From Rickettsiales bacterium (GTDB lineage: Bacteria > Pseudomonadota > Alphaproteobacteria > Rickettsiales > G965195355), in contig OZ239627.1 of NCBI GenBank assembly GCA_965195355.1, positions 73,185-137,184 on the forward strand: DNA of 64,000 nucleotides, in the 5' to 3' direction. The notes beneath the pieces are model-generated. The model was not told the origin of the DNA. It saw only the letters and a program-made list of their open reading frames with translations, and did not search any database. Positions 59,710-61,413 of this stretch are shown here, piece after piece; within the stretch, counting starts at the first letter, position 1; every line of letters starts with the position of its first letter. The position numbers and the translations under genes are program-made.

Positions 59710-61413
59710 ATGGAAGGTACTCATTCTTTGTCAATAGAAGAACTTTTAAAAGTTGGTGCTCATTTTGGACATAGTAAATCTATATGGAACCCTAAAATGG
59801 CTCCATTCATATACGGGCTTGCGCGCAACAATGTGCATATTTTAGATCTCGCTAAAACCGTCCGTCTTTCTCAGGAGATTTGCAAATTCATTGCGGGTCT
59901 TGCATCCTCGAATAGGAATATATTGTTTGTAAGCACAAAACCTCATACTTCTGAGATAGTAAAGAAATATGCTGAAGAATGTGGACAATTTTACGTGAAT
60001 AATAGATGGAGACCTGGTGCCCTTACTAATTGGAAAGAGGGGATAAAATCCATGAAGAAACTCAAGAAATATGATGAATTATTAGATTCAGAAGTGCGAT
60101 CTCAAAGTTATACCAAGAAGGAAATTGCGAAAATTAGAAGGAAATATGATAAATTGCAGAATTCTGTTGGTGGTATACGCGATATGAGATCAATTCCTGA
60201 TTGCTTATTCGTTTTGGATGTCAATAAAGATAGGATTGCTATATCTGAAGCAAATATGTTGGGAATTCCTGTTATAGGTGTATTAGATAGTGATTCTAAT
60301 CCTGATGGCATAGATTACCCTCTCCCTGCAAATGATGATTCCACGAAAACAATTGATATTGTGTGTGCGTTTATTGCGCGTTGTTACAATGCAAACGTTT
60401 CAGAGCGTGGGAGGAGGTCAAGATCTGTGGATGATATTAGAAGTCATTCTAATTCAGAAAGAGGAAATAAGCGCCTTAATAGAGGAGATACACCAAAAGC
60501 AGAATCAGAATCGAAGAAAGTAGTGAAATCAGAAACCATGAATAAAGCGCCAAAAATAAAAGAAAAAGATGCAGATGTGGATTTGATTAAGCGCATTCGT
60601 AGTGTTACTGGTGCTGGCATATTGGATTGTCGCAATGCTGTTAAAGAGTCGAATGGTTCTGAGGAGAAAGCCGTTGAAATTCTAAGAAAGAAAGGAATTG
60701 CTTCTGCGGACAAAAAATCAGAACGAGACACAGATGAAGGATTGGTTTATGTGCACAATATAAGCAATGCTAAATTAGCATTGTTGCAGTTGTCATGTGA
60801 GACAGATTTTGTAGCTAAGGGTGAGAAGATTAGGAATTTTGCAGAATCTCTGTGTGATGAAATGATATCAAAAGATGTGCAGGGTGTTAATCCCAATATA
60901 AGTCCTTTTGAGGATTCATTGAAATCTTGCATATCTTCTGTTGGTGAAAACATAAGGATTCCGTATTTTAGAGTATTTGATACGTCAAAAAGTGGATCAG
61001 TGATATATTACATTCATAATAAATATAGCGGTAGTAATGTTTCTGGAAAAATGGCTTCCATTGTTGTGTTTGATGGGAAATCTGATGAGTTTGGAGAACA
61101 TATAGCAATGCATATAGCAGCTAATGCACCTAAATATTTGGATCGAAAGAGTGTACCTCAGAGAGATATCGATAAAGAAAGAGAGATTCTAATGGCACAG
61201 GTTGCAGAATCTGGAAAAAAGGGAGACGTTATAGATAAGATAGTAGATGGAAGAATGCAGAAATTTTTCGCAAGTAATGTTTTGCTTGAGCAGAAATACT
61301 TGATGGATGATTCTAAGACAGTAGGTAAATTTCTCGAGAGTTCTGGTGTGCATATTGTCAAATATTGTCTTGCAAGGATTGGAATTGACATAATTGAGCA
61401 AGATGCTTCTTAA
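59710..61413 (+). CDS. rpsB: Single 567-aa ORF fusing ribosomal protein S2 (N-terminal about 232 aa) with elongation factor Ts (C-terminal about 285 aa) through a basic/Ser-rich linker
   Basis: S2 part: [61 protein letters not shown]. EF-Ts part: [53 protein letters not shown]...CETDFVAKG. There is no stop codon between the two. An in-frame ATG at 60538 could start tsf. Confidence 0.85.
   Translation: [567 protein letters not shown]

What the first reader, a model, noticed from the sequence alone, without database searches (positions are those of the whole stretch)
59710..61413. rpsB and tsf fused into one continuous 567-codon reading frame
The N-terminal ~232 residues are a complete ribosomal protein S2. 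Residues from about 285 onward are a complete EF-Ts beginning at its UBA-like N-domain ([38 protein letters not shown]). A basic/Ser-rich linker joins them ([26 protein letters not shown]...). No stop codon occurs in between under the standard code. rpsB-tsf adjacency is universal, but the two are normally separate cistrons. Either S2 has lost its stop and a fusion protein is made, tethering EF-Ts to the 30S subunit, or EF-Ts is produced separately from the in-frame ATG at 60538 ([10 protein letters not shown]...). No obvious Shine-Dalgarno sequence precedes that ATG.
Basis: partly seen in the sequence, partly recalled or inferred. Interest (0 to 1): 0.6.

Follow-up and report, generated by a model that had tools for sequence, protein, structure and literature searches.

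The report
Ribosomal protein S2 fused to EF-Ts
In a small-genome, endosymbiont-type alphaproteobacterium, the adjacent genes for ribosomal protein S2 and elongation factor Ts have no stop codon between them, so every S2 is made with the cell's only EF-Ts attached by a flexible linker; this arrangement is rare but recurs in other bacteria and appears not to have been studied.

Summary
Window 59710-61413 (+) is one stop-free 567-codon frame. It encodes a complete uS2 (residues ~8-240), a disordered 48-residue Lys/Ser/Glu-rich linker (241-288) and a complete EF-Ts (289-567). It is the only rpsB and the only tsf in the 991-kb genome.

An assembly artefact is unlikely:
- Codon usage supports the same frame through the linker.
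- Eight long housekeeping genes (9,548 codons) are intact.

All 27 order-level relatives examined keep two genes. In 11 of them tsf lies in the rpsB frame, and in three a single stop separates the two, so one substitution could make the fusion.

The fusion is not unique. At least 16 other 50%-identity clusters among 1.84 billion representatives carry S2+EF-Ts. They include three well-supported groups, within-group identity 45-69%; many members have lost the tsf start Met, so there the covalent protein appears to be the working form. G000's fusion arose independently, on a very long branch.

The in-frame ATG at 60538 sits in an exceptionally open, A-rich context, so internal initiation is plausible. 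The missing Shine-Dalgarno is uninformative, because this genome barely uses one.

I found no literature on S2-EF-Ts fusions. The closest studied analogue is the chloroplast PSRP-7/EF-Ts polyprotein.

The parts
59710..61413 (+). Single rpsB-tsf reading frame: 567 codons plus TAA, predicted 63.3 kDa, pI 8.85
59710..60429 (+). uS2 module, residues 1-240 (27.1 kDa)
   Evidence: Pfam PF00318 12-225 and TIGR01011 7-224. PDB uS2 hits over 7-225. pLDDT above 90 for most of 8-240.
60430..60573 (+). Linker, residues 241-288 ([48 protein letters not shown]). It corresponds to the Lys/Glu-rich C-terminal tail of S2 in relatives plus a short N-terminal extension of EF-Ts, and is predicted disordered.
   Evidence: pLDDT below 50 for 241-284. 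Composition. Codon-usage log-likelihood favours the ORF frame: +11 against -10 and -55 for the other two frames. Relatives' tails are shown.
60538..60540 (+). In-frame ATG (M277), 15 codons before EF-Ts helix 1. It is a candidate internal start that would give a 291-aa, 32.2-kDa free EF-Ts.
   Evidence: The -30..+30 window folds at only -0.5 kcal/mol. Only 0.13% of internal ATGs and 1.3% of confident starts are as open. The surrounding 40 nt are 52.5% A. Anti-SD pairing is average, -3.5 kcal/mol.
60574..61410 (+). EF-Ts module, residues 289-567 (30.9 kDa), with the N-terminal TGAGILDC helix-turn and the ETDFVAK motif
   Evidence: TIGR00116 290-564. Alignment to E. coli EF-Ts 5-263 keeps TDFVAK. 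pLDDT is about 90.
60521..60526 (+). TAG TGA in the +1 frame, 12 nt before ATG 60538. This may be a relic of the ancestral rpsB stop region or may be chance. It is not in the coding frame.
   Evidence: A similar TAGTGA lies directly before the tsf ATG in relative L004.
61394..62119 (+). pyrH (UMP kinase-like). Its start (TTG 61394 or ATG 61403) overlaps the 3' end of the fusion ORF.
   Evidence: The same rpsB-tsf-pyrH order is seen at other fused loci.
59621..59682 (+). Three overlapping sigma-70-like promoter matches upstream of rpsB. No such + strand match lies inside rpsB. This evidence is weak.
   Evidence: 12 sites found against 9.5 expected in shuffles, so not significant

Best explanation
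This is a genuine gene fusion by loss of the rpsB stop codon. The locus is translated from the rpsB ATG as one 63-kDa polypeptide: a uS2 module, a roughly 48-residue disordered basic linker, and an EF-Ts module.

Shown:
- The frame is continuous.
- Both modules are complete and single-copy.
- The linker is coded in the same frame.

Inferred:
- Every S2 entering a 30S subunit carries an EF-Ts on a flexible tether. It hangs from the solvent side of the subunit, where S2's C-terminal tail normally projects. The position of uS2 is my own knowledge and was not tested here.
- The attached EF-Ts still exchanges nucleotide on EF-Tu, at a fixed 1:1 ratio with ribosomes.
- Extra free EF-Ts is probably made by initiation at the internal ATG 60538, which lies in an unusually unstructured, A-rich stretch.

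The fusion arose within this lineage. It was an easy step, because in relatives tsf often lies in the rpsB frame behind one to three stop codons, and the S2 tail is a variable low-complexity extension.
For: Frame, modules and copy number:
- One continuous ORF with both domain matches above curated cut-offs.
- Two confident folded modules with a disordered linker at 241-284.
- A single copy of each half in the 991-kb genome.

Against an artefact:
- The codon-usage log-likelihood ratio favours frame 0 in the linker: +11.0 against -10.3 and -55.5.
- Eight long housekeeping ORFs (9,548 codons) match their profiles end to end, so the indel rate is low.

Ease of origin:
- All 27 relatives with both genes have two separate genes.
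- 11 of the 27 have tsf in the rpsB frame.
- L003, L017 and L018 have a single TAA between the two.

The architecture works elsewhere:
- At least 16 other fused clusters exist among 1.84e9 representatives.
- Three groups of fused sequences have FastTree support of 0.99-1.0 and only 45-69% identity within each group.
- In many of their members (the five-cluster group, P0011/P0136, P0010) no Met lies within 20-190 residues upstream of EF-Ts helix 1.
- Fused genes occupy the canonical locus, with pyrH and/or frr directly downstream, in independent samples.

Internal start:
- The ATG 60538 context is more open than 99.87% of internal ATGs.
- Two other young fusions keep an SD-plus-ATG inside the ORF: AAAGGAGATAAAATG in L119 and CAGGAGAAAGAAATG in L123.

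A second fusion of essential neighbours, rpoB-rpoC, exists in the same genome.
Against: - The DNA sequence therefore rests on one assembly of one genome. No close relative exists; the nearest protein in 5.8e9 clusters is at most 47% identical.
- There are no protein or ribosome-profiling data, so single-polypeptide translation, tether function and internal initiation are all inferred.
- The open, A-rich context of ATG 60538 is confounded, because Lys/Glu-rich tails are encoded by purine-rich RNA that cannot fold anyway.
- The groups of fused sequences were sampled only among fused proteins, so unfused members inside them cannot be excluded.
- The absence of Met in those groups does not exclude GTG or TTG starts. 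For example, a GTG lies 4 codons before helix 1 in L118.
- A TAG TGA in the +1 frame sits just upstream of the internal ATG. That is what a one-base indel in the S2 tail would leave behind.
Confidence: 0.7

Rival explanations
1. Internal initiation is the functionally important route. The fused frame is real, but most working EF-Ts is a free 32-kDa protein started at ATG 60538, and the EF-Ts copy attached to S2 is a tolerated passenger. This is compatible with the best explanation and differs only in which form does the work.
For: - M277 is retained at the position where relatives have the stop, spacer and tsf ATG.
- The context is extremely open and A-rich.
- In the P0002/P0003/P0004/P0132 group the Met 7 residues before helix 1 is conserved. 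So is the preceding Lys-Gly-(Gly)-Asp, whose codons spell AAGGAG in L119, and the rest of the linker is highly variable.
- P0130 also keeps GGAG 7 nt before its internal ATG.
Against: - M277 lies 15 codons before helix 1, whereas relatives have it 7-9 codons before.
- Its anti-SD pairing is only average, -3.5 kcal/mol.
- No + strand promoter-like site lies inside rpsB.
- Older fused lineages have lost the Met, so free EF-Ts is not required for viability there.
- Elongating ribosomes coming from rpsB would occlude the site.
Confidence: 0.4
2. The product is a polyprotein. The 63-kDa precursor is cut in the linker after translation, giving separate mature S2 and EF-Ts, as reported for the Chlamydomonas PSRP-7/EF-Ts precursor.
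For: - The linker is long, exposed and disordered, so it is accessible to proteases.
- There is precedent: the Chlamydomonas PETs protein is processed into PSRP-7 and EF-Ts (PMC8343077).
Against: - No recognisable cleavage motif or dedicated protease was found.
- The Arabidopsis homologue of PETs stays largely unprocessed and functional (PMC8343077).
- Linkers of fused lineages are not conserved in sequence and range from 21 to 138 aa. That argues against a specific processing site.
Confidence: 0.15
3. It is an assembly or sequencing artefact. A miscalled base hides the rpsB stop, or a 1-nt indel in the S2 tail has shifted rpsB into the tsf frame. In the indel case the true S2 would end at TAG TGA (60521-60526), 12 nt before the tsf ATG.
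For: - A TAG TGA double stop in the +1 frame lies exactly where relatives have the rpsB stop, and the +1 frame is open from 60332 to 60523.
- Several high-GC 'fusions' in the databases (P0008, P0009, P0012, P0013, P0054) have Arg/Gly/Pro-rich junk linkers typical of frameshift errors.
- Reads could not be checked.
Against: - Codon usage in 60430-60537 fits frame 0 (+11.7) and not frame +1 (-13.8).
- The frame-0 tail has the hydrophilic Lys/Ser/Glu make-up of relatives' S2 tails. The +1 frame would give a hydrophobic DLWMILEVILIQ segment.
- The only homopolymer in the tail is A4.
- Eight long genes (28.6 kb) show no frameshift.
- The genome is a single closed-size contig with 0.01% contamination.
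Confidence: 0.07
4. Programmed +1 frameshifting in the S2 tail ends a fraction of chains at TAG TGA (60521-60526). This releases free S2 and allows re-initiation at ATG 60538.
For: Only the geometry supports this: an open +1 frame, a double stop, and 12 nt to the ATG.
Against: - I saw no known slippery or shift-prone motif on inspecting 60400-60520.
- No stimulatory structure is present; the fold z-score is +0.61.
- There is no Rfam match.
- The +1 frame has non-coding codon usage.
- T-poor, purine-rich coding sequence is expected to lack stops in all frames.
Confidence: 0.03

Closest known systems
S2-EF-Ts fusion ORFs of other bacteria. Examples are Candidatus Nanosynbacter featherlites WP_138078581.1 / QCT42029.1 (UniRef name 'Multifunctional fusion protein') and uncultured lineages P0002-4/P0132, P0006/P0010/P0131 and P0133/137/140/142/144.
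   Same: - The order is the same: N-terminal uS2, a low-complexity linker, then C-terminal EF-Ts in one frame.
- They occupy the canonical locus, with pyrH and/or frr directly downstream.
- Their linkers are 21-138 aa, and G000's lies within that range.
   Different: - G000's fusion has an independent origin. It sits alone on a very long branch (2.2 substitutions per site against a median of 0.44) and is not sister to any other fused sequence.
- Its closest relative, G026, is unfused.
- None of these fusions appears to have been studied; four literature searches found nothing.
PETs, the chloroplast polyprotein of PSRP-7 (an S1-domain small-subunit protein) and EF-Ts; Chlamydomonas PETs and Arabidopsis EMB2726
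   Same: - EF-Ts is covalently joined to the C-terminus of a protein of the small subunit's solvent-side, mRNA-channel region.
[quoted passage not shown]
- The Arabidopsis protein stays largely unprocessed and works (PMC8343077).
- PSRP7 lies in an SSU arch together with uS2c (PMC13684679).
   Different: - The partner is an S1-domain protein, not uS2.
- The EF-Ts domain is duplicated in plants.
- The gene is nuclear and eukaryotic.
- Chlamydomonas processes the precursor.
- The two share no common origin.
rpoB-rpoC fusion of Helicobacteraceae and Wolbachia
   Same: - Two adjacent essential genes of one machine are joined by loss of the intervening stop, and the product works as one chain (PMC7483510).
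- This genome also has one 2,796-aa rpoB-rpoC frame.
   Different: It involves a different machine. Beta and beta' are obligate partners within one complex, whereas S2 and EF-Ts are not known to act in contact.
Canonical bicistronic rpsB-tsf operon (E. coli and nearly all bacteria)
   Same: The gene order rpsB-tsf-pyrH is the same, and expression is co-ordinated from one transcript.
   Different: - No stop codon or spacer separates the two cistrons.
- No match to any Rfam family was found in 59300-61700, which includes the 129 nt upstream of rpsB.

Membership tests
Bacterial ribosomal protein uS2 (TIGR01011 / PF00318) | Full-length match above the curated cut-off | tested here: met
   TIGR01011 scores 248.6 bits against a cut-off of 76.3, covering profile positions 2-217 of 225. 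PF00318 covers 1-212 of 216.
Bacterial ribosomal protein uS2 (TIGR01011 / PF00318) | It is the genome's S2, with no other copy | tested here: met
   tblastn against the whole genome finds only this locus. The genome search gives one match.
Elongation factor Ts (TIGR00116 / PF00889) | Full-length match above the curated cut-off | tested here: met
   TIGR00116 scores 213.9 bits against a cut-off of 104.05, covering profile positions 6-279 of 293.
Elongation factor Ts (TIGR00116 / PF00889) | N-terminal helical (UBA-like) domain with the TGAG..DC motif, and the TDF motif whose Asp and Phe act at the EF-Tu nucleotide site (the role is from my own knowledge of the E. coli EF-Tu/EF-Ts complex) | tested here: met
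   TGAGILDC and CETDFVAK align with E. coli TGAGMMDC and CQTDFVAK in 1efu_B.
Elongation factor Ts (TIGR00116 / PF00889) | Nucleotide-exchange activity on EF-Tu | not testable with these tools
   This needs biochemistry.
Natural S2-EF-Ts fusion architecture (database 'multifunctional fusion protein') | Both complete domains in one frame with no stop, at the rpsB-tsf locus upstream of pyrH | tested here: met
   the same layout appears in L118, L119-121 and L123.
Natural S2-EF-Ts fusion architecture (database 'multifunctional fusion protein') | Common descent with another fused lineage | tested here: not met
   G000 does not group with any fused sequence in the trees, and its nearest relative, G026, is unfused. 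This is convergence, so membership is by architecture only.
Natural S2-EF-Ts fusion architecture (database 'multifunctional fusion protein') | Made and used as a single polypeptide | not testable with these tools
   This needs proteomics or ribosome purification.
PETs polyprotein (PSRP-7 + EF-Ts) | N-terminal S1 RNA-binding domains | tested here: not met
   Pfam finds only Ribosomal_S2 and EF_TS.
PETs polyprotein (PSRP-7 + EF-Ts) | C-terminal EF-Ts joined to a small-subunit protein | tested here: met
PETs polyprotein (PSRP-7 + EF-Ts) | Post-translational processing into two proteins | not testable with these tools
   No experimental data are available.

The most novel reading that the evidence does not exclude
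The covalent S2-EF-Ts chain is the working form, and tethering the exchange factor to the 30S subunit is advantageous rather than merely tolerated.

Three observations point this way:
- Independent fusions have been retained in several bacterial lineages.
- Older fused lineages have lost the tsf start codon.
- Chloroplasts show the analogous PSRP-7/EF-Ts link.

Together they would mean that EF-Tu recycling can be done from the solvent side of the small subunit. In genomes with decaying Shine-Dalgarno use, such as this one, fusion would be a way to guarantee expression of a downstream cistron. The same genome's rpoB-rpoC fusion would be a second example.
Probability: 0.3. Interest if true: 0.65.

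Novelty: new member of a known kind. Interest (0 to 1): 0.45.

Why it matters
EF-Ts is treated in textbooks as a free cytosolic factor. Here a free-standing S2 cannot be made at all, and the genome has no other tsf. Unless the chain is cut, the organism's 30S subunits must therefore carry EF-Ts.

The same architecture is retained in at least three divergent uncultured groups. Together with those, this gives a natural test of two questions: whether EF-Tu recycling tolerates, or benefits from, being anchored to the ribosome at 1:1 stoichiometry, and how essential neighbouring cistrons merge in reduced genomes.

For annotation the practical message is that such ORFs should not be split automatically or dismissed as frameshift errors. 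High-GC look-alikes with Arg/Gly/Pro-rich junk linkers, however, probably are errors.

Tried and rejected
2. From the open_frame_aa column (641-713 aa in G012, G013, G027 and others) I first thought the fusion was widespread in the order. Fetching the loci showed separate frames with in-frame stops in every one. The idea was dropped.
3. The genome-contig scan returned 80 proteobacterial loci, all with rpsB and tsf in the same frame and none fused. This is a selection bias of the tblastn ranking with a fused query, so it was not used for statistics. It also did not name the organism.
4. SD evidence:
   - The first test (AGGA/GGAG/GAGG) showed no enrichment: 8.8% against 9.4%.
   - k-mer analysis then found a weak, shifted motif, (A/G)AGGT(A), at -11 to -8 in about 12% of confident starts. 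It is complementary to the altered 16S tail GGAUUACCUCUAA.
   - Duplex energies barely separate real starts from internal ATGs: -3.96 against -3.81 kcal/mol.
   - SD presence or absence therefore cannot decide whether there is internal initiation.
5. Promoter, terminator and Rfam scans and folding of the junction found nothing specific.
6. Programmed frameshifting to the +1 TAG TGA was considered and found unsupported.
8. Four literature searches for an S2/EF-Ts fusion found nothing relevant. A fifth failed on term syntax.
9. Names for the fused metagenomic lineages were not obtainable.
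Full report
**1. The observation**

Window 59710-61413 (+) is one ORF of 567 codons ending in TAA. The sequence has no TAA, TAG or TGA in that frame, so the result does not depend on the genetic code. Around the junction (60370-60620) it is the only open frame.

- Pfam finds Ribosomal_S2 at residues 12-225 (E 1.7e-76) and EF_TS at 357-558 (E 1.2e-50).
- NCBIfam finds rpsB_bact at 7-224 and tsf at 290-564, both far above their curated cut-offs.
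- PDB sequence searches align residues 7-225 with E. coli uS2. They align residues 290-560 with E. coli EF-Ts, including TGAG..DC and TDFVAK.
- An AlphaFold2 model built on a 49-sequence alignment has mean pLDDT 86.5. It shows two confident modules, with residues 241-284 below pLDDT 50 and without secondary structure.
- The product would be 63.3 kDa: S2 27.1 kDa, a 48-residue linker rich in K, S, E, D, R and N, and EF-Ts 30.9 kDa.

**2. Is it real DNA?**

The evidence is therefore indirect.

- A codon-usage log-likelihood ratio trained on the genome's own long ORFs favours the ORF frame through the linker. For 60406-60537 it is +11.0, against -10.3 and -55.5 for the other frames. The per-codon strength is similar to that of the S2 core.
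- The frame-0 tail is hydrophilic and Lys/Ser/Glu-rich, like the S2 tails of relatives. The +1 frame would give a hydrophobic segment.
- The tail contains no homopolymer longer than A4.
- Eight long housekeeping ORFs (rpoBC, ileS, dnaE, carB, gyrA, alaS, polA, gyrB; 9,548 codons) match their NCBIfam profiles end to end. The assembly is therefore not riddled with indels.
- The genome is a single 991,359-bp contig with 0.01% contamination.

One point keeps the artefact alive at a few per cent. TAG TGA lies in the +1 frame at 60521-60526, 12 nt before the in-frame ATG. That is where a one-base indel would have left the old rpsB stop.

**3. Only copy**

tblastn of each half against the whole genome finds nothing else. 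Whatever this locus makes is the cell's entire supply of S2 and EF-Ts.

**4. Relatives**

The genome is the only member of its family among the genomes held. Thirty genomes of other families in the same order were searched. I fetched the rpsB-tsf locus of 28 of them. Twenty-seven have both genes at the locus, and one (G022) has a split rpsB.

- In all of them S2 and EF-Ts are separate open frames, with a spacer of 3-60 nt.
- An SD-like AGGAG- or AAGGA-type motif is often present.
- The tsf ATG lies 7-9 codons before the [LIV]K.LR..TGAG helix.
- S2 in these relatives carries a 40-110-residue Lys/Glu/Ala-rich tail. The G000 linker corresponds to such a tail plus about 13 extra residues ahead of EF-Ts.
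- In 11 of the 27, tsf is in the rpsB frame. This is about the one-third expected by chance.
- In L003, L017 and L018 a single TAA separates the two genes. One substitution would fuse them.

My first impression, that many relatives are fused, was wrong. It came from misreading the open_frame_aa column.

**5. Other fusions**

A word-indexed search of 5.8 billion clusters and a full HMMER pass over 1.84 billion representatives both put S2+EF-Ts proteins at the top. I read the sequences and sorted them as follows.

- Some are not credible. High-GC entries (P0008, P0009, P0012, P0013, P0054) have Arg/Gly/Pro-rich linkers typical of out-of-frame translation. P0014 (a spider assembly) and perhaps P0005 (EukProt) are eukaryotic gene models laid on bacterial contigs.
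- At least 16 clusters at 50% identity look genuine. This compares with 12,170 hits at E ≤ 1e-10.
- Several are seen in independent assemblies: P0002 on four contigs from different JGI samples, P0129/P0276, P0130/P0277, P0137/P0278, and the Nanosynbacter protein in NCBI, ENA and Logan.
- They sit at the canonical locus, followed by pyrH and/or frr.

In a FastTree of the concatenated S2 and EF-Ts cores, three groups consist only of fused proteins:
- {P0133, 137, 140, 142, 144}, support 0.998, 45-53% identity;
- {P0002, P0132, P0011, P0136}, support 0.988, 50-69% identity;
- {P0006, P0010, P0131}, support 1.0, 54-67% identity.

The caveat is that only fused sequences were sampled for these groups.

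Within the alphaproteobacterial assemblage that contains G000, fused and unfused sequences are interspersed. P0130 is sister to unfused G026 (support 0.94). P0129+P0005 and P0134 lie elsewhere. G000 sits alone on a very long branch of 2.2 substitutions per site, against a median of 0.44. The fusion has therefore arisen repeatedly, and G000's is its own event.

**6. How is it expressed?**

One step is firm. With no stop, every ribosome that starts at the rpsB ATG makes S2 with EF-Ts attached, so free S2 can arise only by proteolysis. Two things remain open.

*Internal initiation.*
- The 16S 3' tail reads GGAUUACCUCUAA instead of GGAUCACCUCCUUA.
- Only about 12% of confident starts carry a shifted (A/G)AGGT(A) motif at -11 to -8.
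- Anti-SD duplex energies barely differ between real starts and internal ATGs.
- The missing SD at 60538 is therefore uninformative.
- What stands out is openness. The 60 nt around ATG 60538 fold at -0.5 kcal/mol. The median is -6.2 for real starts and -8.7 for internal ATGs, and only 0.13% of internal ATGs are as open. The flanking 40 nt are 52.5% A.
- This is the kind of site that S1-dependent, SD-independent initiation prefers. That preference is my own knowledge. The openness is also what a Lys/Glu-rich tail looks like anyway.
- Two other young fusions keep a clear SD plus ATG inside the frame (L119 AAAGGAGATAAAATG; L123 CAGGAGAAAGAAATG).
- In the P0002 group the Met and the Lys-Gly-Asp codons that spell the SD are conserved within an otherwise fast-changing linker. 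This suggests that internal starts can persist under selection.

*Is the fused chain functional as such?*
- In the older fused groups no Met lies within 20-190 residues upstream of EF-Ts helix 1.
- The one case checked at DNA level has no ATG or SD there (L122).
- Those lineages must use the covalent protein or cleave it, and their linkers (21-138 aa) share no motif that could be a processing site.
- By analogy, I consider the fused chain in G000 functional.

*Geometry (inference from textbook ribosome structure, not tested here).*
- uS2 lies on the solvent face of the 30S subunit, between head and body, near the mRNA exit and the S1 site. The abstract of PMC3296737, listed, says that S2 is needed for S1 binding.
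- Its C-terminal tail projects into solvent.
- A 48-residue disordered linker has a contour length of roughly 170 Å. EF-Ts would therefore sample a large volume around the subunit without blocking the interface.

**7. Comparison with what is known**

I found no paper on an S2-EF-Ts fusion. The architecture is visible only as database entries, for example the UniRef name 'Multifunctional fusion protein' for the Nanosynbacter protein.

The closest studied analogue is the chloroplast PETs polyprotein. There, EF-Ts is fused behind PSRP-7, an S1-domain protein of the small subunit.
- It is processed in Chlamydomonas and largely unprocessed and functional in Arabidopsis (PMC8343077).
- It is described as EF-Ts 'covalently linked to the ribosome' (PMC1939882).
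- PSRP7 lies in an arch together with uS2c (PMC13684679).

The same genome also has rpoB and rpoC in one 2,796-codon frame. That fusion is known from Helicobacteraceae and Wolbachia (PMC7483510).

**8. Verdict**

This is a real and complete S2-linker-EF-Ts gene. It is the sole source of both proteins, and it was formed in this lineage by loss of the rpsB stop.

It is a new, independently arisen member of a rare but recurrent architecture that is present in the databases and apparently unstudied. It is moderately interesting: not a new kind of system, but a natural experiment on whether EF-Ts can work while anchored to the ribosome.

Earlier agents of this scan described the genome as a small-genome, Rickettsiales-type endosymbiont. 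I did not test that beyond its placement among alphaproteobacterial sequences. The scan had not noted an S2-EF-Ts fusion before on other DNA.

Noticed in passing
outside the window: G000:C1:312330-320720 (+), locus L110: rpoB and rpoC form one 2,796-codon frame. rpoB (TIGR02013) covers residues 25-1377 and rpoC (TIGR02386) covers 1407-2744, joined by a ~30-residue Ser/Arg-rich stretch (…EYFGSRSMTSRSSNDLRSFPLRCSSVKISV…). This is a second fusion of essential neighbouring genes in the same genome, of the kind known from Helicobacter and Wolbachia.
   Followed up: partly
outside the window: G000:C1, about 669314-669374 (- strand), 16S rRNA 3' end: The 16S tail reads …CTGCGGCTGGATTACCTCTAATG. The anti-SD core CCUCC is changed to CCUCU and the preceding GAUCA to GAUUA. 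In keeping with this, the only motif enriched upstream of starts is a shifted (A/G)AGGT(A) at -11 to -8, in about 12% of confident starts. Overall anti-SD pairing hardly distinguishes real starts from internal ATGs.
   Followed up: partly
window 61394-63098: pyrH is followed, with an 11-nt overlap, by a 329-aa FlhB/SctU-like export-gate protein (62109-63098), which I named from its sequence only. The usual frr-uppS-cdsA is absent here. pyrH itself overlaps the end of the fusion ORF.
   Followed up: no
whole genome G000: By a crude ORF call, 132 of 493 same-strand neighbouring ORF pairs overlap, 65 of them by 1 or 4 nt. This is a tightly packed genome in which start-stop overlap is common.
   Followed up: no
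window 59710-61413 compared with relatives: S2 and EF-Ts of this genome evolve unusually fast. The terminal branch is 2.2 substitutions per site against a median of 0.44, and the amino-acid composition deviates significantly from the alignment.
   Followed up: partly
L119:956-2755 and proteins P0002, P0003, P0004, P0132: In another fused lineage the internal tsf SD is encoded by conserved Lys-Gly-(Gly)-Asp codons (AAAGGAGAT) just before a conserved Met, inside an otherwise hypervariable linker. This looks like selection on an internal ribosome-binding site within a fused ORF.
   Followed up: partly
window 59095-59580 (-): Directly upstream of rpsB and divergently oriented is a 161-aa ORF containing a run of eight Thr codons. 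It looks like a small membrane protein and was not analysed.
   Followed up: no
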